DNA from: a virus
Lineage: Duplodnaviria > Caudoviricetes
Direction: 5' to 3' (one strand)
Length of the DNA: 64,000 bases
Virus record (IMG/VR): IMGVR_UViG_3300033062_002302
Of the stretch, positions 38,591 to 63,608 are shown piece after piece (the first letter of the stretch is position 1; each line of letters begins with the position of its first letter). Under the pieces are notes generated by a model. That model ran no database searches. It was not told the origin of the DNA and saw nothing but the letters and a program-made list of their open reading frames with translations. The position numbers and the translations under genes were made by a program.

Positions 38591-38782
38591 ATGACCCCTC
38601 AATTATTCATTGATATTAATGGGGCTAGATTGTATTATCTAAAAGGTCACTATCATAGATTAGATGGACCCGCTATTGAATATTCTAATGGAGAAAAATA
38701 TTGGTATTTTCATGGTAAACGTATAGATTGTGATTCTCAAGAAGAATTCGAAGAGACTATTAAGCTAACTATGTTTTGGTGA
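38591..38782 (+). CDS. HRxDGPA-repeat protein (1 repeat, ends TMFW)
   Basis: HRLDGPAIE; conserved family C-terminus. Confidence 0.8.
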   Translation: MTPQLFIDINGARLYYLKGHYHRLDGPAIEYSNGEKYWYFHGKRIDCDSQEEFEETIKLTMFW

Positions 38783-38787
38783 TTGTT

Positions 38788-38994
38788 ATGAGAAATGGAT
38801 TGGTTGAAGGTTTTATTGGGACTTTTGAGGTTAAAAGATATTATTTAAATGATCTTCTCCATAGAGAAGATGGTCCAGCTATAGAATTTACTGGTGGATC
38901 TAAATATTGGTATTTTCATGGAAAATATATAGACTGTAATTCTCAAGAAGAGTTTCTAGCTATAATTAATCCTAAACTCGCTATGTTTTGGTAG
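38788..38994 (+). CDS. HRxDGPA-repeat protein (1 repeat)
   Basis: HREDGPAIE; start moved to the ATG 5 nt after the upstream stop. Confidence 0.8.
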   Translation: MRNGLVEGFIGTFEVKRYYLNDLLHREDGPAIEFTGGSKYWYFHGKYIDCNSQEEFLAIINPKLAMFW

Positions 38995-38999
38995 TTGAT

Positions 39000-39260
39000 A
39001 TGAAAAATGGTTTTATTATTACTAAACGTGGAACTAAATGTCATTATTTAAATGATAAATTCCATAGAGATGATGGTCCGGCTGTTGAATATGCTGATGG
39101 GTCTAAATGTTGGTGCCAAAATGGTAAATATCATCGAGAAGATGGTCCTGCCATTGAATGGAATGATGGAGTTAAAGAGTGGTATTTTCATGGCAAAGAA
39201 ATAAATTGTAAATCTCAAAAAGAATTTGAAGAATATATTAAGTTAGCTATGTTTTGGTAA
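39000..39260 (+). CDS. HRxDGPA-repeat protein (2 repeats)
   Basis: Two repeats; ATG 5 nt after the upstream stop. Confidence 0.8.
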   Translation: MKNGFIITKRGTKCHYLNDKFHRDDGPAVEYADGSKCWCQNGKYHREDGPAIEWNDGVKEWYFHGKEINCKSQKEFEEYIKLAMFW

Positions 39261-39265
39261 TTGAT

Positions 39266-39586
39266 ATGAAGAATAAGCCGCAGATAGATTCATTTGGCAC
39301 TAAAAGATATTATTTAAATAGCCGCCTTCATAGATTAGACGGTCCTGCCATCATATATAAGGATGGATATAAAGGGTGGTATCAACATGGTTTACTTCAC
39401 AGACTAGATGGTCCTGCCGTTGAATCCAGCAATGGAGATAAACTTTGGTATCAAAATAGTGAACTTCATCGACTTGACGGTCCCGCCATTGAACGTGTTA
39501 ATGGAGATAAACATTATTATTTTCATAATAAATATATAAAGTGTTCTTCTCAAGAAGAATTTAAGATATCAATTATTTTTGGTTAA
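39266..39586 (+). CDS. HRxDGPA-repeat protein (3 repeats, shortened C-tail IIFG)
   Basis: Three HRLDGPA repeats. Confidence 0.8.
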   Translation: MKNKPQIDSFGTKRYYLNSRLHRLDGPAIIYKDGYKGWYQHGLLHRLDGPAVESSNGDKLWYQNSELHRLDGPAIERVNGDKHYYFHNKYIKCSSQEEFKISIIFG

Positions 39587-39643
39587 AATTATTTATTAAA
39601 ATAAATCTTGGGGTATATCTCTCCTCAAAGGAGATCTCATATA

Positions 39644-39994
39644 ATGAGCGACCGAGCAGATAATGTTGACGAAATGTACGAAGAAGTTCCCGAAGAGAAT
39701 CAAAAAATATTTGAATTACCTCATTCAAACAATGAATCAAAACGCCTTTTAGAATCTAAAGAGACTTCAAATCATTTGTCTTTAAAAGACAAATATCTTT
39801 TAGATGTTGCTAAGCTAAATCGCAGGATCTCTTTGCTTCAAGCTGAAAAAGCTTTAGCTGAGCACACTGCCGCCGAAGCAAATTTCAAATACTCTATACT
39901 TCAGCTTTATATGAAATATGGCTTGACGGAAGCTGACGCTATTGATGATGACGGTCAAATTCACAAAAATGTTAAACCAGCAAATAAAGAATAA
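39644..39994 (+). CDS. hypothetical coiled-coil protein
   Basis: ATG 39644 preceded by AAGGAG. Confidence 0.6.
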   Translation: MSDRADNVDEMYEEVPEENQKIFELPHSNNESKRLLESKETSNHLSLKDKYLLDVAKLNRRISLLQAEKALAEHTAAEANFKYSILQLYMKYGLTEADAIDDDGQIHKNVKPANKE

Positions 39995-40009
39995 AGAATA
40001 AAGGAAATA

Positions 40010-40390
40010 ATGAAGAAAAAATCATCCGTAGAATTACAGCAAGACAAAGTTTCTATGCCAGCTGTAGTTAAAGATCCGCTAGAGCCAACCAGTATCTTTT
40101 CTGAATTAAAAGAAGAAGACACTCCTCGCAACCAAGAAGTTTTTGAGCGAGAGTTATTCGGGAAAATCGCTAGTTTAATTCAAATTCGACAATTCCTCCA
40201 AGAATCCCAGAATAATTATAATATCGCTAAAAAAGAAATTGGCGAGCTGCAAGGAATGCTTATCTTAATGGATCGGTACATCGCTAATCAAATCCTTTCT
40301 GCGCCTTTTAAAGAAGTTTTGAAGTTTGATCAGGCTAAAGCGGCAACGGCAGATGTTCGTAAAATGAATAACATTAAATCTGGACTCTAA
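40010..40390 (+). CDS. hypothetical protein
   Basis: SD AAGGA; TAATG-coupled to map. Confidence 0.6.
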   Translation: MKKKSSVELQQDKVSMPAVVKDPLEPTSIFSELKEEDTPRNQEVFERELFGKIASLIQIRQFLQESQNNYNIAKKEIGELQGMLILMDRYIANQILSAPFKEVLKFDQAKAATADVRKMNNIKSGL

Positions 40391-41193
40391 TGAAATTATC
40401 AACTCGCTCTCTCTTGCCAAGCCTTCTCCTTGATTTAAAAGGAGAAGATTGGCTTCATAAGCAAAGAGTCGCTGGCAAAGTTACTGCTGGAGCCTTATCT
40501 CTTCTTGAGCGCGAGGCTAAAAATTTAACTCAGCAATCTATGATTGAACTCTCTGCTCTGGCAGAAGAATACATTTTAGATCATAAATGTACTCCAACCT
40601 TTAAAAACTACAAAGGCTTTCCAGCCGCAGTTTGCATTTCAGTCAATAAAACTCTGGTTCATGGAATTCCAAATGATTATCGGTTACAAGATGGCGATAT
40701 TGTTAAATTCGATCTTGGAGCAACTTATGAACGAGCTATTGCTGATTCCGCGATTACTTGTATTTATGGGACCCCTAAATCAGAGCGAGACGTTAAGCTT
40801 CTATCCGCAGGGCAAGAATCCTTAATGAAAGGCATTGAAGCTGTTAAAATTGGCAATAGAATTGGGGCTATTGGTCAAGCTATTTATAAGTCAGTAAAAA
40901 ATAGCGGGTTTAATGTTGTTACCAATTATGGAGGACATTCTATTTCATGGGATAAGCCTCATGCTGGAATGTTTGTTCCTAATCGGTCATCTCAAGATGA
41001 GGGAGTTAGGATTCAACCAGGATTGACGATTGCAATTGAGCCGATGGTTCTTCCGTCTGCTGATACCTCTAGTGTTGTTTCAAAAGATGGCTGGAGTGTT
41101 TTAACCAAAGAGATTGGTTGTCATTGGGAACATACCCTTTATGTTCATGCTGATGGCAGTGTTGAAATTATGACATTGAGGGATAATGTTTAA
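40390..41193 (+). CDS. map: methionine aminopeptidase type I
   Basis: CISVN..VHGIP, D.G..AD, GGH, H, IEPM and HWEHT metal-ligand motifs. Confidence 0.93.
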   Translation: MKLSTRSLLPSLLLDLKGEDWLHKQRVAGKVTAGALSLLEREAKNLTQQSMIELSALAEEYILDHKCTPTFKNYKGFPAAVCISVNKTLVHGIPNDYRLQDGDIVKFDLGATYERAIADSAITCIYGTPKSERDVKLLSAGQESLMKGIEAVKIGNRIGAIGQAIYKSVKNSGFNVVTNYGGHSISWDKPHAGMFVPNRSSQDEGVRIQPGLTIAIEPMVLPSADTSSVVSKDGWSVLTKEIGCHWEHTLYVHADGSVEIMTLRDNV

Positions 41194-41682: not shown

Positions 41683-41846
41683 AAATAGAATTTGAAGATA
41701 AATCATTTGTTCAAATAACTAAAAATTCAATGGGTAATATTGTTATTATGATTCAGGCTAAGGATCATGAAAATTCATTGAAGAAAATTAGCAATGCGGT
41801 TGAATTGAGTCCTGAAGAATTTAAAAGATTAATTGGCGATTTATGA
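41679..41846 (+). CDS. small hypothetical protein (55 aa, not in ORF track)
   Basis: MKIEFEDKSF..IGDL*; ATGA overlaps at both ends. Confidence 0.6.
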   Translation: MKIEFEDKSFVQITKNSMGNIVIMIQAKDHENSLKKISNAVELSPEEFKRLIGDL

Positions 41847-42169
41847 CTCTAGAAGAAGAATCTTATTCTAAAGAAGATTCGTTAAGAGCTTTGATTATTG
41901 AAGCTGGAGTTCCTTTATTCGAATGTTATTATAAAAATAATTATAAGGGATTTTATCGGGGAATTTATTTTGATTCAGATTCTGTAAAGATAGTTACTAT
42001 TTCTCCCAAACGCACAGGAGATAATCCAGATTATTTTATTAATATTCCTAAGACATTTGATTCTAAATACAATAGAGAGGTAGAGTATTTATTCTGTTTT
42101 TATAATTCTAATATAGATTTAGTTACAAAAGAATTAAAATCTTTTATTTTATTGAAAGAATTCATATGA
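41843..42169 (+). CDS. small protein with conserved C-terminal tag (..FILLKEFI)
   Basis: ATGA-coupled; tail similar to the next two genes. Confidence 0.65.
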   Translation: MTLEEESYSKEDSLRALIIEAGVPLFECYYKNNYKGFYRGIYFDSDSVKIVTISPKRTGDNPDYFINIPKTFDSKYNREVEYLFCFYNSNIDLVTKELKSFILLKEFI

Positions 42170-42429
42170 TGGATAATCTTTATAGTTCAGTAGAGGTCTT
42201 AATAGCCGGTCATAATTATGAGGTATTAAATACTTTTTTCGATCTAGCTTCCCAAGATTTGGGTGTCAGGTATTATTGTGATGAATTCCCGCGTAGATAT
42301 ATTTATTTATACGATATAAAATTTTCTTTTAGAACTCTTGATGACTATTTTTTTACTATTGATCGTTTTCATTTCGAATATATCTCAAAAGAACTTCCTA
42401 AATTTTTGACATTACAGGCTTTTTTATGA
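42166..42429 (+). CDS. small protein with conserved C-terminal tag (..FLTLQAFL)
   Basis: ATGA-coupled. Confidence 0.65.
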   Translation: MMDNLYSSVEVLIAGHNYEVLNTFFDLASQDLGVRYYCDEFPRRYIYLYDIKFSFRTLDDYFFTIDRFHFEYISKELPKFLTLQAFL

Positions 42430-42659
42430 CTATCTTCGATTTAATCGAGGAAAGTTCTTTGACATTATTTGCCATTTATGTCTTAAATAAATATAATTAT
42501 AAATTTAAACATGTGACGGATGTTAAGATTTCTAAGCATAATTATTATTTTTTTATAGAAATAGATTACGACAATGATTATGTATGGTTTTGTTTTTCTG
42601 AATTAAATGGTCTTAAAGAAGATTTTGAAAGCTTTCTTAAGCTAAGACAATTTCTATAG
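42426..42659 (+). CDS. small protein with conserved C-terminal tag (..FLKLRQFL)
   Basis: ATGA-coupled. Confidence 0.65.
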   Translation: MTIFDLIEESSLTLFAIYVLNKYNYKFKHVTDVKISKHNYYFFIEIDYDNDYVWFCFSELNGLKEDFESFLKLRQFL

Positions 42660-42712
42660 TATTTCATAAAATGCTGATCTATCAGTAGTTTGGCATTGCT
42701 ATAGGAAAACCT

Positions 42713-43816: not shown

Positions 43817-43839
43817 TATGCATATTTTTTTATAAAGAT

Positions 43840-52044: not shown

Positions 52045-52377
52045 TTATGAAAAAATTGAGTATTGGTCTAGTAATTTATTGAGTTCTATTTCTGAAAGAG
52101 CAAGGTCTTCATCATTTAATGATATTTTAAAAATAAAATCTCTGTCATGTGGAGCTGATACACCAAAAACTTTTTCTTCTTTAAGATAAAGAAGACTATA
52201 TTTGTCAGTATCAACTTCGATTCTTTGAGTCGAATTTTTGACTTCAAACCATCTTATAACTCCATTATTAAATTTAATCATTGGACATGATGTACACCAT
52301 CCCCATCCTAAATATGGGGATGGACAATATAATTTACGATTACATCGTGGGCAATTTTCAATAGGAAATGTAATCAT
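52045..52377 (-). CDS. CPRC zinc-ribbon family small protein (ends IFS)
   Basis: CPRC..CxxC; conserved C-terminal helix. Confidence 0.75.
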   Translation of the reverse strand: MITFPIENCPRCNRKLYCPSPYLGWGWCTSCPMIKFNNGVIRWFEVKNSTQRIEVDTDKYSLLYLKEEKVFGVSAPHDRDFIFKISLNDEDLALSEIELNKLLDQYSIFS

Positions 52378-52733
52378 GAAAATATAATATGTGATGCAAT
52401 TAATTTGTCAAGCTCTAATTCTGATAGAGCCAAATCACTATCATTTAGTGATATTTTAGAAATGATTGAAACTTGCTCTCCATCTGGAGGCTCATTTAAT
52501 GATATTTCAAATAATCCATCTCTTTTATCATAATAAATATTGTAATTATGAGTGTTAATTTCTATGATTTGTAGAGGATTAATTATCTCAATAAAATTGA
52601 GATTGAAGCTTTTAAAATTGATTTTTGGACATTCAAGACAGCCTATCCACTTTGATGATGCTGATTTTCCACCTCCAACCTTTTTTAATCTTGAATTGCA
52701 TCTTGGACATATGGTGATAGGAAATGTGATCAT
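52374..52733 (-). CDS. CPRC zinc-ribbon family small protein (ends IFS)
   Basis: Paralogue of 52045; ATGA overlap. Confidence 0.75.
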   Translation of the reverse strand: MITFPITICPRCNSRLKKVGGGKSASSKWIGCLECPKINFKSFNLNFIEIINPLQIIEINTHNYNIYYDKRDGLFEISLNEPPDGEQVSIISKISLNDSDLALSELELDKLIASHIIFS

Positions 52734-53098
52734 GAAAATATAAGGAATTTTTCTATCGTTGCATTTATCTCTTCATTAGTTAAAAGATAAAGATTGTCAA
52801 ATAATGATAATGTATCGACATCAACATAAACTTCGTCCTTAGAAGGATCAGATCCGAATGCAATGATGGAATCATTATTATGCCAACTGTAGCTATATTT
52901 ATCTGTATTTACTATAAATCTTTCGGTTGAATAATTTATATAAAACCAATGATATTCATCAGGATCACATTTAATATTATTGAATTTTGGACAAACATTA
53001 CAACAAAACCATTCATCAAGAACATCTCCTTCTTTATTAAGATAATTAGAAAGAGATGATTGACATCTTGGACATTTTGTAATCGTAAAAATAGTCAT
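52730..53098 (-). CDS. CPRC zinc-ribbon family small protein (ends IFS)
   Basis: CPRC..CxxC; ATGA overlap. Confidence 0.75.
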   Translation of the reverse strand: MTIFTITKCPRCQSSLSNYLNKEGDVLDEWFCCNVCPKFNNIKCDPDEYHWFYINYSTERFIVNTDKYSYSWHNNDSIIAFGSDPSKDEVYVDVDTLSLFDNLYLLTNEEINATIEKFLIFS

Positions 53099-53391: not shown

Positions 53392-53652
53392 TCACCAAAA
53401 CACGGCTAACTTAATTTGCTCTTCAAACTCTTCTTGAGAGTCGCAATCTATATATTTACCATGAAAATACCACCATTTAGCGCCTCTGACATATTCAATA
53501 GCGGGTCCGTCTAAACGATGGCGTTGACCTCTTTGATAATAAGATTTGCCTCCATCGATCCATTCAATGGCAGGACCGTCTTCTCGATGAAGTAAATCAT
53601 TTAAAAAATGTCTTTTATTTCCCCATTTATCTATTTTTATACTATTCATCAT
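53392..53652 (-). CDS. HRxDGPA-repeat protein (2 repeats)
   Basis: Repeats present; ends AVFW. Confidence 0.8.
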   Translation of the reverse strand: MMNSIKIDKWGNKRHFLNDLLHREDGPAIEWIDGGKSYYQRGQRHRLDGPAIEYVRGAKWWYFHGKYIDCDSQEEFEEQIKLAVFW

Positions 53653-53658: not shown

Positions 53659-53925
53659 CTACCAAAACATTGCTAACTTAATTTCGTCTTCGAATTCTTC
53701 TTGAGTTTTACAATTTATTTGTTTACCATGAAAATACCAATATTTAGCTCCAGTATGCCATTCAAGGGCAGGACCATCTAAACGATGACGCCTCCCATAT
53801 TGAAACCACTCTTTGGATCCGCTGACATGTTCAATAGCAGGTCCATCATCTCGATGATATTCATAGTTTAGATAATAAAATCTATGTCCATATTCATCTA
53901 TATATAATCCATTTTTAATTCTCAT
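53659..53925 (-). CDS. HRxDGPA-repeat protein (2 repeats)
   Basis: Repeats present; ATG 5 nt after the upstream stop. Confidence 0.8.
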   Translation of the reverse strand: MRIKNGLYIDEYGHRFYYLNYEYHRDDGPAIEHVSGSKEWFQYGRRHRLDGPALEWHTGAKYWYFHGKQINCKTQEEFEDEIKLAMFW

Positions 53926-53930: not shown

Positions 53931-54269
53931 TCACCAAAACATTGCTAATTTAGGATTAATTATAGCTAAAAATTCTTCTTGAGATTTACAATCTATAGGC
54001 TTGCCATGAAAATGCCAACTTCCAACTCCATTAGAGTATTCGCAAGCTGGTCCATCTTCTCTATGACGTTTTCCATCTTGATACCACTCTTTAGTCCCGC
54101 CACTATATTCAATGGCAGGACCATCTTCTCGATGAAGTTTGCCGTATTGAAACCAACATTTAGTGCCATCATTGTATTCAATGGCAGGTCCATCTAATCT
54201 GTGAAATAGATTGTTGAGATAGTATTTTTTATCTCCAAAGTGATTAGTTATTATTATATCTTGAATCAT
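53931..54269 (-). CDS. HRxDGPA-repeat protein (3 repeats)
   Basis: Repeats present; ends INPKLAMFW. Confidence 0.8.
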   Translation of the reverse strand: MIQDIIITNHFGDKKYYLNNLFHRLDGPAIEYNDGTKCWFQYGKLHREDGPAIEYSGGTKEWYQDGKRHREDGPACEYSNGVGSWHFHGKPIDCKSQEEFLAIINPKLAMFW

Positions 54270-54270
54270 A

Positions 54271-55149: not shown

Positions 55150-55410
55150 TTACCAAAACATCGCCAATTTGATTTGTTCTTCAAATTCTTCTTGAGATTT
55201 ACAATTTATTTCTTTGCCATGAAAGAACCAAAATTTATTTCCATTATTCCATTCAATAGCAGGACCATCTAATCGATGGAGAAGATCATTCTGAAACCAC
55301 TCTTTATGTCCATCAATAAACTCTATTGCCGGACCATCTTCTCGATGATAAAGATCGTTTAAATAATATATTTTAGTACCAAACTTATCTATAAACAAAC
55401 CATTTTCCAT
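55150..55410 (-). CDS. HRxDGPA-repeat protein (2 repeats)
   Basis: Repeats present; ATG 5 nt after the upstream stop. Confidence 0.8.
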   Translation of the reverse strand: MENGLFIDKFGTKIYYLNDLYHREDGPAIEFIDGHKEWFQNDLLHRLDGPAIEWNNGNKFWFFHGKEINCKSQEEFEEQIKLAMFW

Positions 55411-55415: not shown

Positions 55416-55676
55416 TCACCAGAACATTGCCAGCTTAATTTTGTCTTCAAATTCTTTTTGAGACGAACAATCTATTTCTTTACCATGAAAGTACCAATAT
55501 TTATCTCCATTGGAAAATTCCATAGCTGGTCCATCTAGCCTATGAAATTCACCATTTTGATACCATGATTTTCCTCCATTGAGATATTCGATAGCCGGAC
55601 CATCTTCTCGATGATAGTTGTCATTTAAATAATATATTTTAGTTCCACCTGAATCTACAAATAATCCATTTTTCAT
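55416..55676 (-). CDS. HRxDGPA-repeat protein (2 repeats)
   Basis: Repeats present; ATG 5 nt after the upstream stop. Confidence 0.8.
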   Translation of the reverse strand: MKNGLFVDSGGTKIYYLNDNYHREDGPAIEYLNGGKSWYQNGEFHRLDGPAMEFSNGDKYWYFHGKEIDCSSQKEFEDKIKLAMFW

Positions 55677-55681: not shown

Positions 55682-56080
55682 TCACCAGAACATCGCTAAC
55701 TTAATTTGTTCTTCAAATTTTTCTTGAGAAGAACAATCTATTTTTTCATCATGAAACCACCATTCTTTGTGTCCATCATAATATTCAACAGCTGGACCAT
55801 CTAACCGATGAAGCTTGTCATTTTGACACCAGAATTTAGATCCACTAGCCAATTCAATAGCTGGTCCATCTATTCTGTGGCGCTGACCATGTTGATGCCA
55901 TTCTTTACATGCTAATATGTAATTTACCGCAGGACCATCGTTTCTATGAAGGCGATTATTAGAATCATAATATGCTATACGGCAATCATTATAACAAATG
56001 TAGCCATCCTTAATAGGAAGACCATTTTTATTATTTAATATAATATTTCTAAATAATAATTTGACTTCATTCCAAAACAT
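55682..56080 (-). CDS. HRxDGPA-repeat protein (3 repeats)
   Basis: Repeats present; likely start ATG 56080 just after the upstream stop. Confidence 0.75.
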   Translation of the reverse strand: MFWNEVKLLFRNIILNNKNGLPIKDGYICYNDCRIAYYDSNNRLHRNDGPAVNYILACKEWHQHGQRHRIDGPAIELASGSKFWCQNDKLHRLDGPAVEYYDGHKEWWFHDEKIDCSSQEKFEEQIKLAMFW

Positions 56081-56081
56081 A

Positions 56082-58268
56082 TTACGTAATTCTTTTAACG
56101 CTATGAGGATGAGATTCAATTAATCCAGCATTTGTCACTCTGACGAAAACTGGGTTTTCTTTTAGCTCTGTTAAATTATGCGCGCCTTGATAAGAACAGC
56201 CGCTTTTTAAGCCTTGCAAAAGTTTTTCTACAATCTCTGAAGCTGGACCTTTTGGCTCTACGACTGCTTTGACTCCTTCAACATGACTATCTTTATGAGT
56301 AGAGCTGCCTTCATAATTTTTATAAAGTTTTCCATCAATCATAATATCTTGGCATGGAGCATCACAAGATCCAGCAAAAAGGCTGCCTGCCATAACCAAA
56401 TCAGCAAAAGCAAGACATTTAACTAAATCTGAAGCATATCGAATTCCACCATCAGCGATAAAGGCAACATCTTTATAAGAGAAGAATTCTTTCTTATAAG
56501 AAGACACTTCCATGAGAGCAGATAATTGCCCATTACCAGCACCAGCTTCAACTCTAGTTGAACATGTGGAATTATGAACAATCATGTTATTAGCAATAAA
56601 ACTATGCGTGTCACAATCTACAGTAAGATCATAAGTTTCCATTGAAACATCATCTTCTTTATATTCTAAATTTTTTACTATATAAAAATCATTTGTTAGT
56701 CGCCATTCTGGTCTAGCTAAGGTTCTGCTTATATAAGCATCATGTTTTCCATTTATTTTACCAACAGCTTTTCCTCTGTTTAAATTATTTGGCATATATC
56801 CAAATAATTTAAAATTAATTATATTAAATAACTCTATGACTTTGCCAGAGGTATTACATAATGATTTTCTTTTATCGGTTTCTGAATCGGAATAATGACC
56901 ATCACTATCTAACAAACCATCATATAATCCATTTAAATAATCTTTATTATTTACAAATAAATTATCAGGCAAATGTTTTTTTTCTTTTTTACCAAATGAA
57001 AAAAGAAAATCAGATAATGGCTTGTAGTAAAAAGTTACTTTGAACATATTTGATGTTTCTATAATTTTAGGTTTTTTATTAAAAATTTTCTCAATGCAAT
57101 TAATAAGTTTATCAACTACATCCATTTCATTTTTTCCAAAATACCAAGTAACAGCTCCAATACGAGAATTATTTTTTTTATATAAAACAGAGTGTGCGCA
57201 TCCATCTCCCAAAAATGTTCCAAATAAATATCCGGACTCATAATTTGGGATGATAACAGAATCTTCTTGATAGGAATGGTTACTTGTTTCAAATTTAGGC
57301 ATATGAAATCTTTTTTTCAAAGATATTTTGAATGTTTCAGGCATTTCAAAATCAATTTTATTGGGGAATAAAAATACTGTTTTTTCAGATTCACAAACTG
57401 ATTTCCATTTATATTTTGATTTTTTTGGAATTGTCTTAGACCTAACGTCTAGTAATTTTTTATAGCCATGCGCGCCTAAACTTGCTTTAGATGTGCTTGA
57501 TAAATCTCCAACGTAGAATTCATGCTCTGGCGTCACAAATGTATTTTTATAAAAAGAGTTATTTTTCAATTCTGCAACTTTTTTTATTCCAGTGCTAAAA
57601 GAGTTTAATACTTTAACAGGCTTGCCGTTTTTATTAATGACATAATCTCCTACAAGAACATCTTCGATATTTTTATATTGCCCATTAGACATTAATATTC
57701 TTGTTCCAGCAGCAAAACATCCCGAGCCCACTCCGACTTTTACTATATCTGCCCCAGATTCCCACAAAAACTTCGCTCCATAGCCAGTTGCAACATTCCC
57801 AGCAATTAATAAGACGTCAGGATATGTCTCAGCGACATATCGAGTCATATCACCAGCCAATTTAGAATGACCATGAGCAACATCAATGCAAACAATTTTA
57901 ACGCCTAGTTTAATAAATTTATCTAAATTAGACTTATCCTCTTCTTTAACTCCAATTGAAACTCCAACATAATCTAAAGGATTAGCGACTTTTTTTATAT
58001 TTCTTCTTAATAGAGTTTCGATTAAATCGAACTGGTCTTCTATTGGCATAAAGCGATGAATTAAAGCTAAGCTTTTCATTTTAAACATAGCTTCAGCCAT
58101 ATCATACCCGGTAATAGCTGACATGTTCGCCGGAACAATTGGATGACTAACTTTAAACCCTTTGGGCAATTTAACGCTGACATCTACCTGAGAGCGACTC
58201 TCGACTTCAGAATATTGGGGCTTAAGCAAAACATCATCAAATGATAAAGACTCTTCAAATTTCAACAT
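56082..58268 (-). CDS. IMP dehydrogenase / GMP reductase family enzyme (no CBS domains) containing an intein
   Basis: FDDVLL.P, IDVAHGH, AGNVAT, KVGVGSG|STCSTR, IADGGI and VEG motifs; spliced length 345 aa. Confidence 0.9.
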   Translation of the reverse strand: MLKFEESLSFDDVLLKPQYSEVESRSQVDVSVKLPKGFKVSHPIVPANMSAITGYDMAEAMFKMKSLALIHRFMPIEDQFDLIETLLRRNIKKVANPLDYVGVSIGVKEEDKSNLDKFIKLGVKIVCIDVAHGHSKLAGDMTRYVAETYPDVLLIAGNVATGYGAKFLWESGADIVKVGVGSGCFAAGTRILMSNGQYKNIEDVLVGDYVINKNGKPVKVLNSFSTGIKKVAELKNNSFYKNTFVTPEHEFYVGDLSSTSKASLGAHGYKKLLDVRSKTIPKKSKYKWKSVCESEKTVFLFPNKIDFEMPETFKISLKKRFHMPKFETSNHSYQEDSVIIPNYESGYLFGTFLGDGCAHSVLYKKNNSRIGAVTWYFGKNEMDVVDKLINCIEKIFNKKPKIIETSNMFKVTFYYKPLSDFLFSFGKKEKKHLPDNLFVNNKDYLNGLYDGLLDSDGHYSDSETDKRKSLCNTSGKVIELFNIINFKLFGYMPNNLNRGKAVGKINGKHDAYISRTLARPEWRLTNDFYIVKNLEYKEDDVSMETYDLTVDCDTHSFIANNMIVHNSTCSTRVEAGAGNGQLSALMEVSSYKKEFFSYKDVAFIADGGIRYASDLVKCLAFADLVMAGSLFAGSCDAPCQDIMIDGKLYKNYEGSSTHKDSHVEGVKAVVEPKGPASEIVEKLLQGLKSGCSYQGAHNLTELKENPVFVRVTNAGLIESHPHSVKRIT
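56571..57719 (-). mobile_element. intein with LAGLIDADG endonuclease in IMPDH/GMPR (383 aa)
   Basis: Starts CFAAGT; block B TPEH; GTFLGDG and GLLDSDG motifs; TYDLTV; ends VHN followed by Ser. Confidence 0.92.
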
Positions 58269-58337
58269 TGTATCCTTTTTGTTTTAAATGCATTAAAATA
58301 TTATTACTCGTTTTGTATAGTATTGAAGGAAGATTTT

Positions 58338-59246
58338 ATGTCAATATTTTCAGCAATTAGCAATTTAATTAATAAAATTACCGGAGAAAAACCTGTCGAA
58401 TGCCAACCTACAAAAGAGGAGGAGGTCCATTTGCCAGAACCATTAGTTCAAGCTTCTGTGCCACCCTCATTTGGTCCAGTTTTTCCAGAGCGAGCTTCTG
58501 ACGCTGTTTCGGGCTCAACCTTTGCCAATTCTATTATAACCTTCCCTGCCAATCAGACAAGAGAAAATCTTATTTTTAAAGAATTCACGAGCGGAAATAT
58601 TCCGGACTTCTTTAAAAACTTTGTTGAATTAAGTATTACTCTTAATAATTATAAAATAAAATATTTGGTTTCTCCAGATTACATTTCAATTGGTAATGAT
58701 CAAGATTTTATTAGAATGCCATTGAGCCCATTAACCTATCAAAAAATAGCTAATGAGTATGGGTGTTCTTTGCCAACCAGAAAAATGGTTAATCAAATTT
58801 GGAGCGCTGCCTCGGTCAAACTAGAGCCATCTCCTAATGGTCCACCATATGACGCAACGATGATGGGCGTTGCCGCAGCTATTAAAAACAATGCCAAGAT
58901 AGAGAAGCTTCGAAGCGCTCATCCTCTTGGCAAGTTAGTTGCAGGACATAAGAAAGATGTCGTTTTAACTAAAGAGTTAGTGACTAAGAAAAATAAAGTT
59001 GCTATTTATGGTTGGTTTTATTCAAACGGAAAGGTTATTCAAAATTTGAATAGTCAAGATCATGATGCATCTTATTCTGATTATTCGCATGGAGGACGAT
59101 TAATATACCGTAAAGTTTTTATTAACGATCAAGAATGTGATCTTTATGATGTCATGAAAGACAAGACTTTATCTTATTTGGTTAGCGACGAAGGTCCATT
59201 TGATCCGGAAAATATTTATGAAAATAAGATTAGCTCTTCAATGTAA
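58338..59246 (+). CDS. hypothetical protein of bacterial-like family, putative enzyme
   Basis: PDY.SIG, LPTRKMV, GHKKDVV, VAIYGW and Y.DYSHG motifs; ATG 58338 after AAGGA; the only real + strand gene in this block. Confidence 0.65.
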   Translation: MSIFSAISNLINKITGEKPVECQPTKEEEVHLPEPLVQASVPPSFGPVFPERASDAVSGSTFANSIITFPANQTRENLIFKEFTSGNIPDFFKNFVELSITLNNYKIKYLVSPDYISIGNDQDFIRMPLSPLTYQKIANEYGCSLPTRKMVNQIWSAASVKLEPSPNGPPYDATMMGVAAAIKNNAKIEKLRSAHPLGKLVAGHKKDVVLTKELVTKKNKVAIYGWFYSNGKVIQNLNSQDHDASYSDYSHGGRLIYRKVFINDQECDLYDVMKDKTLSYLVSDEGPFDPENIYENKISSSM

Positions 59247-59569
59247 TTATTAATTTCTTTCTCTTTTAGAGAATAAAGGGGAGGGATATTTGAAAGTATT
59301 ATTTTCATTTCATCTTGAGATTTACTCAAATATGAAACTATCAGATAATTTTCGTGCTGTATAATTCTAAATACTGATGAGTTTATCAAGTAAGTCCAAT
59401 TTCTAAAGAAAGGATCGGAATCATTTATATAAATGAATGATGTTTTATCTCCCATGCTATCTATTAATAATGGAATTACACAGTTATTACATCGTAAATA
59501 ATAATTTGCTTTTGATAAGGGAATTTTGCATCTAGGACAATCTTTAAAATTTAATTCACTTGTGTTCAT
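59216..59569 (-). CDS. CPRC zinc-ribbon family small protein (ends LFS)
   Basis: CPRC..CxxC; conserved tail. Confidence 0.75.
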   Translation of the reverse strand: MNTSELNFKDCPRCKIPLSKANYYLRCNNCVIPLLIDSMGDKTSFIYINDSDPFFRNWTYLINSSVFRIIQHENYLIVSYLSKSQDEMKIILSNIPPLYSLKEKEINNYIEELILFS

Positions 59570-59904
59570 GAAAATAATATAATTTGATTGATGTATTGAT
59601 TTATTTCAATATCAGATAATAGATGAAGATTGGGATAATTTTTTATTTCAAATGGCATTTGAAAATATAGCTGATTATTTTTTGAAGGCGAAGAAATGGT
59701 AATTTTATCTTTATAAATGTGAAGATGGAATTTGTCGTTGGACAAAGCAATTGCTGCCTGAAAAATGGATGGTTCAATTTCGTTAATTACATATAGCCAA
59801 GAAACGCCGTTAATTGTAGGGCAAGTCCAGCATGAACTATAAATGCCATCCATATCTAATGGATGTTTACATCTAGGACATTGTATTAAATTATAATAAT
59901 TCAT
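59566..59904 (-). CDS. CPRC zinc-ribbon family small protein (ends LFS)
   Basis: CPRC..CxxC; ATGA overlap. Confidence 0.75.
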   Translation of the reverse strand: MNYYNLIQCPRCKHPLDMDGIYSSCWTCPTINGVSWLYVINEIEPSIFQAAIALSNDKFHLHIYKDKITISSPSKNNQLYFQMPFEIKNYPNLHLLSDIEINQYINQIILFS

Positions 59905-60231
59905 CTACAAAAATAACAACAATCGCTCTATTGTTTTATTAATTTGTTCATTTGAAAGGAGGTAGATGTCCTCTAAACTATTTGTTTCTAGAATTAGAGA
60001 CTCACGTAGGTATTTTTTTATAAATATACTAGCTTTGTTTTGAGATACTTCAATTATAAACTTATCTGTTTGAACTTCATAACTTTCCCATGAAAGTTTC
60101 ATTCTTATCCAAGATCCACTACCTTTATAACGAGTGCAAAAATCATAATCACAATATGATTGATTTAATACGAATGACCATTTAAAAATATTATGGCACC
60201 GTGGGCAATGTGTAATTTGTTTAAAAATCAT
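59905..60231 (-). CDS. CPRC zinc-ribbon family small protein (ends LFL)
   Basis: CPRC..C...C. Confidence 0.75.
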   Translation of the reverse strand: MIFKQITHCPRCHNIFKWSFVLNQSYCDYDFCTRYKGSGSWIRMKLSWESYEVQTDKFIIEVSQNKASIFIKKYLRESLILETNSLEDIYLLSNEQINKTIERLLLFL

Positions 60232-60563
60232 TGAAAGATAAGAAGCTGCTCAACATAGCTATTGATTTCTTCATCCTCAAGAAAAGGAAGTTCTGTAATA
60301 TCAATATTTTTTAATGCAGACTGAATGCTATATCCCCTATTTGTAATGTAAGTTTCTTCAAAATGATATTCAATTCTATATTTCGAAGAAAATAGAACAA
60401 AAACCCAATCACTATCATAGTTGTAGTTTTTATTTATATAAAGAAAATTTTCTGGACTATTATCAATCCAATAATAAACAAAGCAATTATTACATGTTAA
60501 AGACCGGTAAGTCATCTCTTCACGCATTGGAGCATGACATCTTGGACAATCAATTTTTATCAT
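60228..60563 (-). CDS. CPRC zinc-ribbon family small protein (ends IFQ)
   Basis: CPRC..CxxC. Confidence 0.75.
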   Translation of the reverse strand: MIKIDCPRCHAPMREEMTYRSLTCNNCFVYYWIDNSPENFLYINKNYNYDSDWVFVLFSSKYRIEYHFEETYITNRGYSIQSALKNIDITELPFLEDEEINSYVEQLLIFQ

Positions 60564-60874
60564 TATGAAAATATCACTAATGCATCTATATAATCATAAA
60601 TATGATCGTGAGTCATTAAGCTTAAATTAGGATGCTCAATTCCTTCAAGCGCAATAATTTCTAGATAATCATTAAACAATATTATCTTACCAAGACAATC
60701 AATTCTAATTGAATATTTAGAAGTGGTTATTTCGTAACTTTTGTCTGAAGTATTTATTACAAGCCAATTTCTGTATCTTATTGTCGGGCAATAAAGGCAC
60801 CATCTAAATCCATAACCTTCATGTATTTGATTTAAACAACGAGGGCATTTAGTTAAACTAACTATCTCAAGCAT
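60563..60874 (-). CDS. CPRC zinc-ribbon family small protein (ends IFS)
   Basis: CPRC..CxxC. Confidence 0.75.
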   Translation of the reverse strand: MLEIVSLTKCPRCLNQIHEGYGFRWCLYCPTIRYRNWLVINTSDKSYEITTSKYSIRIDCLGKIILFNDYLEIIALEGIEHPNLSLMTHDHIYDYIDALVIFS

Positions 60875-60875
60875 A

Positions 60876-61100: not shown

Positions 61101-61109
61101 AATACTAAT

Positions 61110-61763
61110 TTAAACTCCTAATTTTAAAATATCAAATGTTGGTTCAGAGATGTCTCGAATCAATCGAACCATCTCCGGGCAGGCAGGCATGGAAGATAAG
61201 AATCCCCTGCTTCTTTTGCAAGGGTACGGTTTGTTTTTTAATTTTACTTCAACAAATCTCTTCAAATCCAAATTTTGGAAAATTAGTTTCAGGAAGTTCA
61301 AACCGAGATATGTTGTCGGAATCTTTGTCCATTGCCCAAATAAAAGACAATAGCTCCTAAAGAAACCGTCTAGACCCAAGAAAGTCATAATAGTATGATC
61401 TTCTAATAAGTCTTCATCTTTACCAAAGATGAAGAAGGCGAATTTGCTAATTTTAGCTATTTTATAAATAGGAAGATTTTCATAAATATCTGTTTTAACT
61501 AACAAAGATTTATCTAAGTTAATATTATTATTGCTAATACTAACTTTCTTTTTAATTATTTCTAATGTATTTCCGTTTTCATCAACCCATTTGCTATGAA
61601 ATTTAATTTTCTTATTATATTCCTTATAGATAATATCATAAGGTTTCATTCGACAAGAACGAATGATAAAATCAATAGACGGATCTTCTAAGTAAGCCGA
61701 TGTTAAAGCAATACTTTTATCGAAGGTAAGGTAGAATTTATCAACTGATTTGGTTTGATTCAT
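61110..61763 (-). CDS. hypothetical protein
   Basis: 217-aa ORF, ATGA-coupled. Confidence 0.55.
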   Translation of the reverse strand: MNQTKSVDKFYLTFDKSIALTSAYLEDPSIDFIIRSCRMKPYDIIYKEYNKKIKFHSKWVDENGNTLEIIKKKVSISNNNINLDKSLLVKTDIYENLPIYKIAKISKFAFFIFGKDEDLLEDHTIMTFLGLDGFFRSYCLLFGQWTKIPTTYLGLNFLKLIFQNLDLKRFVEVKLKNKPYPCKRSRGFLSSMPACPEMVRLIRDISEPTFDILKLGV

Positions 61764-62428
61764 TCTGGGATATTATTAGGATCATCAAAGTCAATTAAAT
61801 TTTCATCTAACTTCTTGAAGTCATGAGGAAAAGTCTTAATGTGAGGAAGATAATTAACGCCAAGTTCTAATAGTTTCATCCAGAGAAGATAGGTATTTCT
61901 ACTATCTGTCTTGGCTTCGTGCTTGGCTCCAAACTTCTTGATTTCAAGCATGTCAAGGCAAGCATGAAGCTGAGTGCTAACTTTGCCCGTTGCCGTCTTC
62001 GTAATCTTTAAATTAGATTCTCCAACTTTCTTAACGTATTCCTTGGTTAAGGAAACGGTATCAAGCCAAAGAGAAGCTGGAAACTCTAAATCGCATTTTT
62101 GCCATAAAGCATGCATGAATCTTCGGTCAAACGAAGCGTTGTGAGCAATGATACATCGCCCATTGGGATTCTTGCCATCTTCTGATATGAATTGTTCAAT
62201 GGTTTTGACGGCGTCTTCTTTAGAATCACCTTTAACAATATCAGCAAGGGTTTTATTAGTAATCTTTAAGCTATCAAAATTTGAGCGTTCAGGATATTCA
62301 CATTTAATGAATTTATGCAGCTGTACTCGGTCTTTACAGCGAATGATGCCGACTTCAAGACATTCATGGAATTTAGAGTCAAGACCATTTGTTTCAGTAT
62401 CTGCAATATAGAATTCTAAACCGCTCAC
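61760..62428 (-). CDS. DEDDh 3'-5' exonuclease (DnaQ-like)
   Basis: DTETNG, HNASFD, WLDT and HEAKTD motifs; GTG start with GAGG SD. Confidence 0.88.
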   Translation of the reverse strand: MSGLEFYIADTETNGLDSKFHECLEVGIIRCKDRVQLHKFIKCEYPERSNFDSLKITNKTLADIVKGDSKEDAVKTIEQFISEDGKNPNGRCIIAHNASFDRRFMHALWQKCDLEFPASLWLDTVSLTKEYVKKVGESNLKITKTATGKVSTQLHACLDMLEIKKFGAKHEAKTDSRNTYLLWMKLLELGVNYLPHIKTFPHDFKKLDENLIDFDDPNNIPE

Positions 62429-62476
62429 TTAGTTTCCTCATATAATGGAGGATATATTAAAATAATATATTTATTT

Positions 62477-62821
62477 TTATCTTTTTTCAATTTCTTCCTT
62501 TGATGTTAAGATTTTATCGTTGACTTGAATGCAAATTCCGTAAATAGAAGGTGCTTTAATCCAACCATTGACATAATTTTTATTGTTTGAGATTTGAATC
62601 CTTGGATCTTCTTTATCTTCTATAGCGGAAATGAGATGAAGATATTGTTTTCCTTTAACTTTACAAAGAACAATATCTCCAACTTTAAATGAGGTTGGAG
62701 AAGAAATGACGGTAACTCGGTCTCCAGACTCAATCTTTCCTTGCATTGAATTGCCGGAAGGATTAAAGGAAACTTCGCCTTTTTCTTTTAGAACGTTAAT
62801 GAAAATATCTGCCCATCCCAT
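62477..62821 (-). CDS. S24/S26 peptidase-fold protein
   Basis: GNSM, GD.V, GDIV and YLHLI motifs. Confidence 0.7.
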   Translation of the reverse strand: MGWADIFINVLKEKGEVSFNPSGNSMQGKIESGDRVTVISSPTSFKVGDIVLCKVKGKQYLHLISAIEDKEDPRIQISNNKNYVNGWIKAPSIYGICIQVNDKILTSKEEIEKR

Positions 62822-62832
62822 TTATAATTAAT

Positions 62833-63093
62833 TCACCAAAACATTATTAATTTAATTTTCTCTTCAAATTCTTCTTGAGAGTTGCATTCAATGTATTTGC
62901 CGTGAAAATACCAAGCTTTATATCCATTAACATAATCAACAGCGGGACCGTCTAGCCTATGAAGCAGATCATTTTGCCACCAAGATCTGTCTCCATTAGA
63001 GTCTTCAATGGCAGGACCTCCTTCTCTATGAATCAGACCATTTAAATAATGTTTTTTAGAGCCATAACCATCTATTATTAGACCATTTCTCAT
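62833..63093 (-). CDS. HRxDGPA-repeat protein (2 repeats)
   Basis: Repeats present; ATG 5 nt after the upstream stop. Confidence 0.8.
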   Translation of the reverse strand: MRNGLIIDGYGSKKHYLNGLIHREGGPAIEDSNGDRSWWQNDLLHRLDGPAVDYVNGYKAWYFHGKYIECNSQEEFEEKIKLIMFW

Positions 63094-63098
63094 ATTAA

Positions 63099-63608
63099 TT
63101 ACCAAAACATTGCTAATTTAGGATTAATTATAGCTAAGAATTCTTCTTGAGAAGAACATTTTATGTATTTGCCATGAAAAAACCAATCTTTACTTCCATC
63201 CGCCCATTCAATGGCTGGACCATCTAATCTATGAAGCTTTCCATGTTGATACCACCATTTAGTTCCGGAATCACATTCAGCAGCCGGTCCATCTAATCTA
63301 TGAAATTTGCCATGTTGGTACCACTCTTTAGTTCCATCAGAGCGTTCAATGGCAGGACCATCTAACCTATGAAATTTACCATTTTGAAACCATTCTTTAT
63401 CTCCATTGGCATATTCAATAGCAGGTCCGTTTTGCCTATGAAGTTTCCCATGACGATAATACTCTTTATAGTATAGAAAGGCATTTTCATTAAAATCATC
63501 TATGATGATGATTGCTGGACCATTATTTCTATGTAATCTTCCATTAAAATAATAACGCTTGTCTCCACAAGAATCAATTTTCAATCCGTGTCTTGTGCTT
63601 CGTTTCAT
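63099..63608 (-). CDS. HRxDGPA-repeat protein (5 repeats)
   Basis: Five repeats; ends INPKLAMFW. Confidence 0.8.
   Translation of the reverse strand: MKRSTRHGLKIDSCGDKRYYFNGRLHRNNGPAIIIIDDFNENAFLYYKEYYRHGKLHRQNGPAIEYANGDKEWFQNGKFHRLDGPAIERSDGTKEWYQHGKFHRLDGPAAECDSGTKWWYQHGKLHRLDGPAIEWADGSKDWFFHGKYIKCSSQEEFLAIINPKLAMFW

What the first reader, a model, noticed from the sequence alone, without database searches (positions are those of the whole stretch)
38591..63608. Shared C-terminal helix ending x-Phe-x-COOH on 23 small proteins from three unrelated families
Seen: 12 HRxDGPA proteins (e.g. KEFEEYIKLAMFW), 8 CPRC Zn-ribbon proteins (e.g. KEINNYIEELILFS) and 3 otherwise dissimilar proteins at 41843-42659 (e.g. 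EDFESFLKLRQFL) all have penultimate Phe after an acidic amphipathic helix. EDFESFLKLRQFL and KEFEEYIKLAMFW align in exact register although the N-terminal domains are unrelated. They lie in seven clusters on both strands. Inference: a modular adaptor system in which variable target-binding domains share one docking tag for a common partner. Candidates are a protease (compare HbYX-type C-terminal docking), the sliding clamp (some tails resemble QxxLF), or a capsid-packaging or localisation receptor. It would be analogous to ankyrin/F-box adaptors of eukaryotic viruses.
Basis: partly seen in the sequence, partly recalled or inferred. Interest (0 to 1): 0.88.

Follow-up and report, generated by a model that had tools for sequence, protein, structure and literature searches.

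The report
Shared C-terminal tag on phage proteins
A quarter of the genes on this piece of an uncultured huge phage (a distant relative of Bacillus phage G) encode small proteins of at least three unrelated kinds that all stop exactly one residue after an invariant phenylalanine; complete relatives put the same ending on over a hundred unrelated small proteins, so it looks like an undescribed address or docking label whose reader is unknown.

Summary
All 23 genes, 3 families and 7 clusters are as described. On the whole 239-kb record, 74 of 300 ORFs have a penultimate Phe, against 8 of 234 outside the three families. The Phe is as invariant as the zinc ligands. Codon use shows that selection acts on the protein, not the DNA.

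In a complete 448-kb relative, 148 of 743 ORFs end this way, with consensus K-L-K-A-F-[L/I]. These fall into 84-107 small families whose bodies BLAST cannot link (P below 1e-28). The core motif is about 230-fold enriched at exactly one residue from the end.

HRxDGPA (MORN-like) relatives outside this phage clade lack the ending. Inside the clade, the same body carries either ..MFW or the zinc-ribbon family's ..LIFS.

I conclude it is a portable C-terminal handle, most likely read through the Phe and the free carboxylate by one common partner. The partner is not identified. No clamp or proteasome/HslV gene was found. The phage does encode two ClpP, an AAA ATPase, DnaJ and trigger factor.

AlphaFold places the helix firmly inside each domain, so a purely structural role remains a serious rival. 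Co-folding was not available. This scan had already met the same tag in related huge phages. I found no published description.

The parts
38591..38782 (+). HRxDGPA (MORN-like) protein, 63 aa, one repeat, tail ..TMFW
38788..38994 (+). HRxDGPA protein, tail variant with Pro insert (..NPKLAMFW)
39000..39260 (+). HRxDGPA protein, two repeats, tail ..LAMFW
39266..39586 (+). HRxDGPA protein, three repeats, shortened tail ..SIIFG
41843..42169 (+). Family C protein, 108 aa, tail ..LLKEFI
42166..42429 (+). Family C protein, 87 aa, tail ..TLQAFL
42426..42659 (+). Family C protein, 77 aa, tail ..KLRQFL (closest to the clade-wide K-L-K-A-F-L)
52045..52377 (-). CPRC zinc-ribbon protein, tail ..YSIFS
52374..52733 (-). 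CPRC zinc-ribbon protein, tail ..HIIFS, ATGA overlap with next gene
52730..53098 (-). CPRC zinc-ribbon protein, tail ..FLIFS, ATGA overlap
53392..53652 (-). HRxDGPA protein, tail ..LAVFW
53659..53925 (-). HRxDGPA protein, tail ..LAMFW
53931..54269 (-). HRxDGPA protein, three repeats, Pro-insert tail ..NPKLAMFW
55150..55410 (-). HRxDGPA protein (first row of alignment A2, folded), tail ..LAMFW
55416..55676 (-). HRxDGPA protein, tail ..LAMFW
55682..56119 (-). HRxDGPA protein with longer N-terminus (start uncertain), tail ..LAMFW
59216..59569 (-). CPRC zinc-ribbon protein (first row of A1, folded), tail ..LILFS; last gene of its array, no coupled downstream gene
59566..59904 (-). CPRC zinc-ribbon protein, tail ..IILFS
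59905..60231 (-). CPRC zinc-ribbon protein, tail ..LLLFL
60228..60563 (-). CPRC zinc-ribbon protein, tail ..LLIFQ
60563..60874 (-). CPRC zinc-ribbon protein, tail ..LVIFS
62833..63093 (-). HRxDGPA protein, tail ..LIMFW
63099..63608 (-). HRxDGPA protein, 169 aa, five repeats, Pro-insert tail; passes Pfam DUF6745 (30.4 bits, cut-off 27)

Best explanation
The ending is a portable C-terminal handle. It is the last turns of an amphipathic helix that must finish [L/I/M]-x-x-F-x-COOH. Selection at the protein level keeps it on small, fast-diversifying, binder-like proteins of unrelated folds in a clade of roughly 450-kb phages distantly related to Bacillus phage G.

I think it is read in trans by one common partner through the invariant penultimate Phe, the hydrophobic residue three or four places before it, and the free carboxylate one residue after it. 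That would work like an HbYX or HslU tail, or like the tethering tail of the ClpX adaptor SspB.

My best guess for the output, at about one chance in three given that a reader exists, is a link to the phage's own proteostasis set (two ClpP, a YjoB/Bcs1-like AAA ATPase, DnaJ, trigger factor). The tail would act either as a tether that brings bound host targets to it or as a timer for the tagged protein itself. Loading into the capsid is the next guess.

Shown: the motif, its position lock, selection at the protein level, its presence on unrelated bodies, and its absence from outside relatives of the same fold.

Inferred: that a reader exists, what it is, and what binding achieves.
For: 1. Enrichment and invariance. 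On this record 74/300 ORFs have Phe at -2, against 6-24 at neighbouring positions and 8/234 outside the three families. The Phe is invariant in 33 zinc-ribbon and 26 HRx paralogues. It is kept in 26 of 30 external zinc-ribbon homologues.

2. Many independent bodies. In the complete relative G001, 148/743 ORFs carry it. That is 107 of 487 small families by BLAST on bodies at E<=1e-3, or 84 of 419 at E<=0.1. The binomial P is 6e-40 and 1e-28. In 23 loci from about 12 viral contigs, 96 of 491 families carry it.

3. Position lock. In G001 the four-residue core occurs 82 times exactly one residue from the end and 67 times in 137,847 internal positions.

4. Selection on the protein, not the DNA. Synonymous codon use at tail positions equals the genome-wide use, and TTT/TTC and all Leu and Ile codons occur.

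5. Grafting onto an older fold.
- HRx is MORN-like/DUF6745 with more than 7,900 homologues. Among the top 120 only 8 have Phe at -2.
- Some relatives stop right after the ancestral S-Q-E-E-F cap helix (P0074, P0093).
- Six of 26 HRx tails have a two-residue insert with Pro between the cap helix and K-L-A-M-F-W.

6. Interchangeable endings. Two HRx proteins here (L002:10221-10481 and 10478-10738) and seven in contig 3300037189_033826 end L-I-F-[S/T] or a close variant (I-I-F-E in one), like the zinc-ribbon family, instead of A-M-F-W.

7. HRx dialect differs between lineages. Positions -4/-3 are A-M in this lineage and K-A in G001, where K-A is also the consensus of all other tagged families.

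8. The AlphaFold HRx model has pLDDT of 94 or more throughout but about 75 for the last six residues. By helical geometry (my inference), L(-5), F(-2) and W(-1) face away from the residues that pack on the repeat (F(-11), I(-7)).
Against: - AlphaFold models the helix as a confident, integral part of both domains. In the zinc-ribbon model, helix 103-116 has pLDDT 93, so the Phe may simply be a core residue. I could not obtain coordinates to measure burial.
- The last residue and positions -3/-4 are family-specific (W in HRx, S in the zinc-ribbon family). The zinc-ribbon family keeps its own I-K-x-x-L-I-F-S form in external relatives, as expected if the tail is fitted to its own body.
- On this record only three families carry it.
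- Families that BLAST cannot link may still descend from one ancestor by tandem duplication and fast divergence, which would inflate the count of independent cases.
- No reader was found. There is no gp45, DnaN, or proteasome/HslV match in this record or in two complete relatives. A PDZ protein is present in only one relative.
- No binding could be tested.
Confidence: 0.45

Rival explanations
1. Structure only. The ending is each small domain's closing helix, with Phe(-2) as a core residue. It looks shared because most tagged families descend, by tandem duplication and rapid divergence, from a few ancestors that kept their most constrained element. No trans-acting reader exists.
For: The AlphaFold models place the helix confidently in both folds: pLDDT 93 for zinc-ribbon residues 103-116, and 95 or more for HRx residues 73-80. 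Tail dialects are family-specific. The genes lie in tandem arrays whose members are barely alignable, for example family C. In this record the tail is confined to three families.
Against: - HRx relatives outside the clade have the same repeats without the ending, and some stop before it.
- A Pro-containing insert separates the cap helix from the terminal hexapeptide in 6 HRx proteins.
- A-M-F-W and L-I-F-S swap on one body.
- A generic structural rule would not be specific to one clade. The rest of this proteome and 33 small phage G proteins, including its zinc-ribbon family, lack it.
- A structural helix would not need to stop exactly one residue after the Phe in MORN-like, zinc-ribbon and other bodies of 50 to about 380 aa.
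Confidence: 0.22
2. C-terminal degron. The non-polar end marks these small, probably early, proteins for timed destruction by a Clp-type or FtsH-type protease. The protease could be the phage's own ClpP pair working with a host or phage unfoldase.
For: The last five residues are non-polar and locked to the free C-terminus. By my own knowledge, this is the logic of ssrA-type and other C-terminal degrons. The phage and its complete relatives encode two true ClpP (E 7e-48 and 2e-42), an AAA ATPase closest to YjoB/VAT, DnaJ and trigger factor.
Against: The tail is modelled as a stable helix, not a loose end. The upstream part is acidic in this phage. It is unclear why a fifth of the proteome would need one strictly conserved degron. 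Nothing links ClpP to the tail beyond presence in the same genomes.
Confidence: 0.12
3. Self- or cross-association handle. The tails pair with each other and make homo- or hetero-oligomers of binder modules.
For: The HRx helix end is hydrophobic and less confidently placed in the monomer model. By my own knowledge, MORN proteins often dimerise.
Against: Pairing gives no reason for the strict stop one residue after Phe. The zinc-ribbon helix is already fully packed in the monomer model.
Confidence: 0.08
4. Sliding-clamp client motif. L-x-x-F-x at the C-terminus mimics the core of PIP-box or beta-clamp-binding peptides and plugs these proteins onto a clamp.
For: Q-I-K-L-A-M-F-W fits Q-x-x-L-x-x-F-W. 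The phage replicates with a DnaE-type polymerase.
Against: Gln at -8 is present in only 9 of 26 HRx tails and absent from the other families. No gp45 or DnaN match was found in this record or in two complete relatives. DnaE itself ends in an acidic run without the motif. More than 100 clients is implausible.
Confidence: 0.04
5. Nascent-chain signal. The last residues act inside the ribosome at termination to favour re-initiation on the overlapping next gene.
For: The motif is measured from the stop codon. Tagged genes are more often tightly coupled to a downstream gene: 76% against 46% here, and 64% against 38% in G001. Many junctions are TCATGA overlaps.
Against: 9% of tagged genes here and 25% in G001 have no coupled downstream gene and keep the tail. 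Conservation extends 12-16 residues back with helical periodicity. All three stop codons are used. The stronger coupling is expected from tandem arrays alone.
Confidence: 0.04

Closest known systems
HbYX motif of proteasome activators and the HslU C-terminal tail (own knowledge)
   Same: A hydrophobic residue, then an aromatic residue in the penultimate place, then any residue, then the free carboxylate. The position is counted from the C-terminus. The motif is used as a plug for a pocket in a partner.
   Different: Here the aromatic residue is Phe, never Tyr. The motif sits on more than 70 small non-ATPase proteins per record, not on a ring ATPase. It is the end of a confidently modelled helix rather than a flexible tail. 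No proteasome or HslV gene was found.
C-terminal tethering tail of the ClpX adaptor SspB, and adaptor logic in general, such as the F-box/ankyrin adaptors of poxviruses (own knowledge)
   Same: A variable target-binding body joined to a short constant docking peptide at the C-terminus. The phage encodes Clp protease parts.
   Different: There is no sequence likeness. No ClpX-type N-domain was identified. The scale is hundreds of proteins rather than a few. Adaptor function is entirely untested.
Capsid targeting sequence of phage T4 internal proteins, and cargo-loading peptides of encapsulins (own knowledge)
   Same: A short portable peptide shared by unrelated proteins of one virus or shell, which addresses them to one place. 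Encapsulin peptides are C-terminal and bind an HK97-fold shell, the fold of phage capsids.
   Different: The T4 signal is N-terminal, is cleaved, and sits on about half a dozen proteins. The encapsulin peptides are Gly/Ser-rich and extended, not helical with an invariant Phe. No virion data exist for this phage.
Lineage-specific expansion of about 35 zinc-ribbon proteins in Bacillus phage G (Iyer et al. 2021, PMC7824862)
   Same: The closest cultured relative by major head protein (52.5% identity). It also has a large array of small N-terminal CxxC zinc-ribbon proteins with a family-specific C-terminal helix. Fold likeness is weak (BFVD Gp410, E 0.04).
   Different: In the first 50 kb of phage G, none of 33 small proteins has Phe at -2, and its zinc-ribbon tails end differently. 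The paper describes no tag shared across families.
MORN repeats / Pfam DUF6745 (PF20530)
   Same: The HRxDGPA unit is this repeat (Pfam 30.4 bits against a cut-off of 27). The top Foldseek hits are all MORN proteins. There are more than 7,900 homologues.
   Different: The K-L-[AK]-[MA]-F-W ending is confined to the huge-phage subgroup. Only 8 of the top 120 homologues have Phe at -2.

Membership tests
MORN-like repeat, Pfam DUF6745 (for the HRxDGPA bodies) | Sequence match to the family profile above its curated cut-off | tested here: met
   window:63099-63608 scores E 3e-7 and 30.4 bits against a cut-off of 27. The two-repeat protein reaches only 15.9 bits. Most of the listed top homologues carry PF20530.
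MORN-like repeat, Pfam DUF6745 (for the HRxDGPA bodies) | MORN-type beta-hairpin repeat fold | tested here: inconclusive
   The model has pLDDT 94.5. The best PDB matches are all MORN proteins (MORN1, MORN4, junctophilin, radial-spoke proteins), but at E 0.03-0.1 and TM 0.3-0.47.
HbYX-type C-terminal docking motif | Hydrophobic-Tyr-X at the extreme C-terminus | tested here: not met
   The position and the hydrophobic residue at -3 fit, but the aromatic residue is Phe in 74/74 cases and never Tyr.
HbYX-type C-terminal docking motif | A 20S proteasome or HslV ring as receptor | tested here: inconclusive
   There is no PF00227 match in this record (56% complete) or in two complete relatives. The host is unknown.
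Sliding-clamp-binding peptides (PIP box, beta-clamp motif, T4 gp45-binding tails) | Conserved Gln at the start of the motif followed by the hydrophobic/aromatic pattern | tested here: not met
   Gln at -8 is present in 9/26 HRx tails and is not conserved in the zinc-ribbon family or family C.
Sliding-clamp-binding peptides (PIP box, beta-clamp motif, T4 gp45-binding tails) | A clamp encoded by or available to the phage, and binding to it | tested here: inconclusive
   There are no gp45 (PF09116, PF02916) or DnaN (PF00712, PF02768) matches. The host clamp is unknown. Binding cannot be tested with these tools.
C-terminal degrons (ssrA-like) | Non-polar last residues with a free carboxylate on an accessible, unstructured end | tested here: inconclusive
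   The non-polar end locked to the C-terminus is met. Accessibility is doubtful, because the tail is helical at pLDDT 93 in the zinc-ribbon model and about 75 in HRx.
C-terminal degrons (ssrA-like) | Tag-dependent degradation | not testable with these tools
   This needs stability assays.
T4-type capsid targeting sequence | N-terminal, cleaved by the prohead protease, found on virion internal proteins | tested here: not met
   The motif is C-terminal. No virion data are available.
Bacillus phage G zinc-ribbon expansion | N-terminal CxxC...CxxC ribbon in a tandem array of small paralogues | tested here: met
   Four Cys are invariant in 33 paralogues. There are arrays of 3, 5 and about 27 genes.
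Bacillus phage G zinc-ribbon expansion | Detectable homology to the phage G family | tested here: inconclusive
   The exhaustive profile search found 30 small external homologues, which the library does not name. The BFVD fold match to phage G Gp410 is only E 0.04 and TM 0.25. The phage G tails differ.
PDZ-domain ligands | A PDZ reader present wherever the tag is present | tested here: not met
   A standalone 80-aa PDZ protein exists in G001 (PF17820, E 7e-12) but not in the complete relative G002 or in this record.

The most novel reading that the evidence does not exclude
Huge phages of this clade run a proteome-wide C-terminal address system. More than a hundred unrelated, rapidly diversifying small binder proteins carry one tag that a single phage-encoded receptor reads through the penultimate Phe and the free carboxylate. 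This would couple whatever each binder catches to a common machine, for example the phage's own ClpP1P2/AAA protease. It would be a prokaryotic-virus counterpart of F-box or ankyrin adaptor libraries.
Probability: 0.12. Interest if true: 0.9.

Novelty: new variant of a known kind. Interest (0 to 1): 0.7.

Why it matters
A fifth to a quarter of the genes of these very large phages are small orphans with no known function. A single shared, position-locked ending gives the first handle on them as a group. One receptor would connect more than a hundred proteins to one pathway, and tail peptides could be used as bait to find it.

If the tag is an adaptor tether or a loading signal, it would be a new way for phages to organise host take-over. 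It would also be a ready-made portable tag for engineering. If the tag is only structural, it still defines a minimal helix-anchored scaffold on which phages evolve binders very fast.

Other windows of this scan suggest that different huge-phage clades each have their own C-terminal tag, so the principle may be general.

Tried and rejected
No binding or oligomer test was made.

**DNA-level explanation: rejected**
- I considered a DNA-level signal such as a palindrome, promoter or ribosome site.
- Synonymous codons at tail positions follow genome-wide usage.
- A sigma-70 and terminator scan of 50500-64000 was uninformative: 86 sites against 64 +/- 7 expected.

**Search for a reader**
- No matches for gp45, DnaN or proteasome/HslV.
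- PDZ is present only in G001.
- The AAA ATPase has no conserved IGF-type loop and no HbYX end.
- No tmRNA is encoded in this record or in G001.

**Larger tagged proteins of G001**
- Ten were scanned against Pfam. Only a weak SLT hit and a weak zinc-finger hit came up, so there is no functional clue.

**Fold searches for the zinc-ribbon model**
- PDB Foldseek: best E 0.2.
- VIA-align: Z below 4.
- ESM Atlas: TM below 0.5.
- BFVD: best E 0.009.
- No known fold was found.

**Sequence and family searches**
- PHROGs: no family for any of eight tagged proteins.
- Family C has no homologues outside this phage.
- The megablast of 38500-56200 against GenBank phages found nothing.
- The search for related loci with the zinc-ribbon alignment failed for lack of a conserved stretch.

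**Literature**
- Six searches found no description of the tag.

**Bacillus phage G**
- Its first 50 kb do not carry the tag. I did not fetch the remaining 450 kb.

Full report
**What is in the window**

- Twelve proteins are built from one to five HRxDGPA units. Eleven end [A/I/T/V]-[M/V]-F-W and one ends I-I-F-G.
- Eight proteins have an N-terminal CPRC...CxxC zinc ribbon and end [L/I/S]-[I/L]-F-[S/L/Q].
- Three adjacent proteins at 41843-42659 end E-F-I, A-F-L and Q-F-L.
- They lie in seven clusters on both strands, between ordinary phage genes. Those genes include thymidylate synthase, DHFR, an intein-bearing IMPDH/GMP reductase, PhoH and ribonucleotide reductase.

**The whole record**

The window is part of a 239,327-bp IMG/VR virus record that CheckV rates 56% complete.
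- Of 300 ORFs, 74 have Phe in the penultimate place. Phe occupies any other of the last ten places in only 6-24 ORFs.
- The 74 comprise 37 zinc-ribbon proteins (including an unbroken array of about 27 genes just beyond the window, and four longer members of 167-208 aa), 26 HRx proteins, the three family C proteins and 8 others.
- Outside the three families the rate is 8/234, which is the background.
- In alignments of 33 zinc-ribbon and 26 HRx paralogues the penultimate Phe is invariant, like the four zinc ligands.
- The last 14 residues are more conserved than the bodies: 42% against 24%, and 72% against 56%.
- Within this record, therefore, the signal is very strong but rests on three independent families.

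**Selection is on the protein, not the DNA**
- Phe is coded by both TTT and TTC, and Leu and Ile by all their codons.
- In the complete relative, the synonymous codon shares at each tail position equal the genome-wide shares.
- The final Ser of the zinc-ribbon family is partly explained by the TCATGA overlap with the next start codon. The Phe is not explained this way.

**Relatives**

The major head protein is 52.5% identical to that of Bacillus phage G, so this is an uncultured relative of the largest cultured phage.

A scan of IMG/VR with the HRx alignment returned 23 loci from about 12 contigs of 6 to 448 kb, with GC 30-48%. In them, 96 of 491 body families end x-F-x, and most of these families are neither HRx nor zinc-ribbon.

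I fetched one complete relative, G001 (447,763 bp), in full.
- 148 of 743 ORFs have Phe at -2, with consensus K(-6) L(-5) K(-4) A(-3) F(-2) [L/I](-1).
- They form 107 of 487 small families when bodies are clustered by BLAST at E<=1e-3, or 84 of 419 at E<=0.1. The binomial P is 6e-40 and 1e-28.
- The four-residue core occurs 82 times exactly one residue from the end, and 67 times in all 137,847 internal positions.
- The family C tails in the window (for example ..K-L-R-Q-F-L) are the local form of this clade-wide ending.

An exhaustive profile search found 30 external zinc-ribbon homologues, and 26 of them keep Phe at -2.

The first 50 kb of phage G show no such ending among 33 small proteins, and its own zinc-ribbon family ends differently. 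The tag is therefore specific to this clade.

**Evidence that the ending is portable**

The HRx body is a MORN-like repeat. It passes Pfam DUF6745, the best structural matches are all MORN proteins, and it has more than 7,900 homologues.
- Among the top 120 homologues only 8 have Phe at -2.
- The ancestral feature is just a short S/T-x-E-E-F cap helix after the last repeat, and some relatives stop right after it (P0074, P0093).
- In 6 of the 26 local HRx proteins, a two-residue insert containing Pro separates that cap helix from the terminal K-L-A-M-F-W.
- Two HRx proteins of this record, and seven in a sister contig, end L-I-F-[S/T] or a close variant, which is the zinc-ribbon family's ending, instead of A-M-F-W. 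Here they also share its TCATGA junction.
- Between lineages the HRx tail changes from A-M (this lineage) to K-A (G001) at -4/-3. K-A is the consensus of all other tagged families in G001.
- I do not claim a concerted shift for the zinc-ribbon family. Its true homologues keep I-K-x-x-L-I-F-S everywhere.

**Structure**

AlphaFold on the paralogue alignments gives two confident models.
- The zinc-ribbon protein (pLDDT 84, pTM 0.73) is a ribbon plus about nine strands and a C-terminal helix at residues 103-116 with pLDDT 93. It matches no known fold.
- The HRx protein (pLDDT 94.5) has helix 73-84, and only the last six residues fall to about 75.

I had no coordinates to measure burial.

By helical geometry (my inference), the HRx residues that should pack on the repeat (F-11, I-7, A-4, M-3) lie on a different face from L-5, F-2 and W-1. 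This would leave the tag face free. In the zinc-ribbon family all hydrophobic positions merge into one broad face.

**Candidate readers**
- No T4-type clamp, DnaN, proteasome or HslV was found in this record or in two complete relatives.
- A standalone 80-aa PDZ protein exists in G001 only.
- The phage and its relatives do encode two true ClpP, an AAA ATPase closest to B. subtilis YjoB and to VAT/Cdc48, an FtsK/HerA-like ATPase, DnaJ, trigger factor and a DnaE polymerase.
- YjoB is described as a chambered chaperone (PMC9565160).
- None of these is tied to the tail by more than co-occurrence. Co-folding was not available.

**Rival readings**
- Structure only, with common descent: confidence 0.22.
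- A C-terminal degron: 0.12.
- A self-association handle: 0.08.
- A clamp motif: 0.04.
- A nascent-chain signal for termination and re-initiation: 0.04.

On the last rival, tagged genes are more often tightly coupled to the next gene (76% against 46% here). However, 9% here and 25% in G001 have no coupled downstream gene and still keep the tail.

**Verdict**

It is open as to the partner and the adaptor function. I put 0.45 on a common trans-acting reader.

Other follow-ups of this scan reached the same point on related DNA. One was a zinc-ribbon array in a 444-kb groundwater phage. Another was a shared helix tag on a quarter of the genes of a huge-phage fragment. A later check of a similar claim priced the bold reading at 10-15%. 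I found no published description. The jumbo-phage survey PMC7824862 notes only the phage G zinc-ribbon expansion and the patchy presence of ClpP.

Noticed in passing
window 32848-35571, 36058-38571, 56082-58268: Three enzymes carry inteins or homing-endonuclease inserts (LAGLIDADG, Hint or Intein_splicing hits): the ribonucleotide reductase large subunit, a PIN-PhoH fusion, and IMPDH/GMP reductase.
   Followed up: no
outside the window: G000 178491-179507, 190112-191356, 204007-205347, 209004-209990, 210661-211862 (loci L032-L034): The phage encodes a proteostasis set: DnaJ, trigger factor, a YjoB/VAT-like AAA ATPase with a conserved 200-aa N-domain, an FtsK/HerA-like ATPase, and two adjacent true ClpP paralogues. 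The ClpP pair is also present in relatives G001, G002 and G003.
   Followed up: partly
L001:1177-1482 (-), beyond the window end: This is the only zinc-ribbon paralogue without the terminal tag. It contains L-I-F-S internally, followed by 16 more residues, as if the stop codon had been lost. It is a natural 'extended tail' variant or a decaying copy.
   Followed up: no
G001 (L041-L063): 212881-213035: The complete relative carries 37 tRNA genes, including two with anticodon CTA (amber suppressors) and one tRNA-Phe with anticodon AAA. TAG is its rarest stop codon (44 of 743). The 239-kb record of the window has no tRNA gene.
   Followed up: no
G001 16632-16874 (L041): A standalone 80-aa PDZ-domain protein (PF17820, E 7e-12) sits in a genome where a fifth of the proteins share a hydrophobic C-terminus. 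It is absent from the complete relative G002 and from this record.
   Followed up: partly
outside the window: G000 139561-144826 (L066): Four tandem paralogues of 389-462 aa lie next to the major head gene (137191-138201). The one member scanned (139561-140730) had no PHROG match. They could be scaffold or internal head proteins.
   Followed up: no
loci L012, L013, L016 (contigs 3300005537_000138/000445, 3300008267_000121): In these lineages all HRx proteins end K-x-L-W or a near variant, with Leu instead of Phe in the penultimate place. Other small families on L016 keep Phe. This natural dialect could be used to trace a co-varying reader.
   Followed up: partly
window 51530-52030 and 54271-55116: DHFR and thymidylate synthase genes are wedged between the tagged-gene clusters. 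The tagged arrays are therefore interspersed with nucleotide-metabolism genes rather than forming one block.
   Followed up: no
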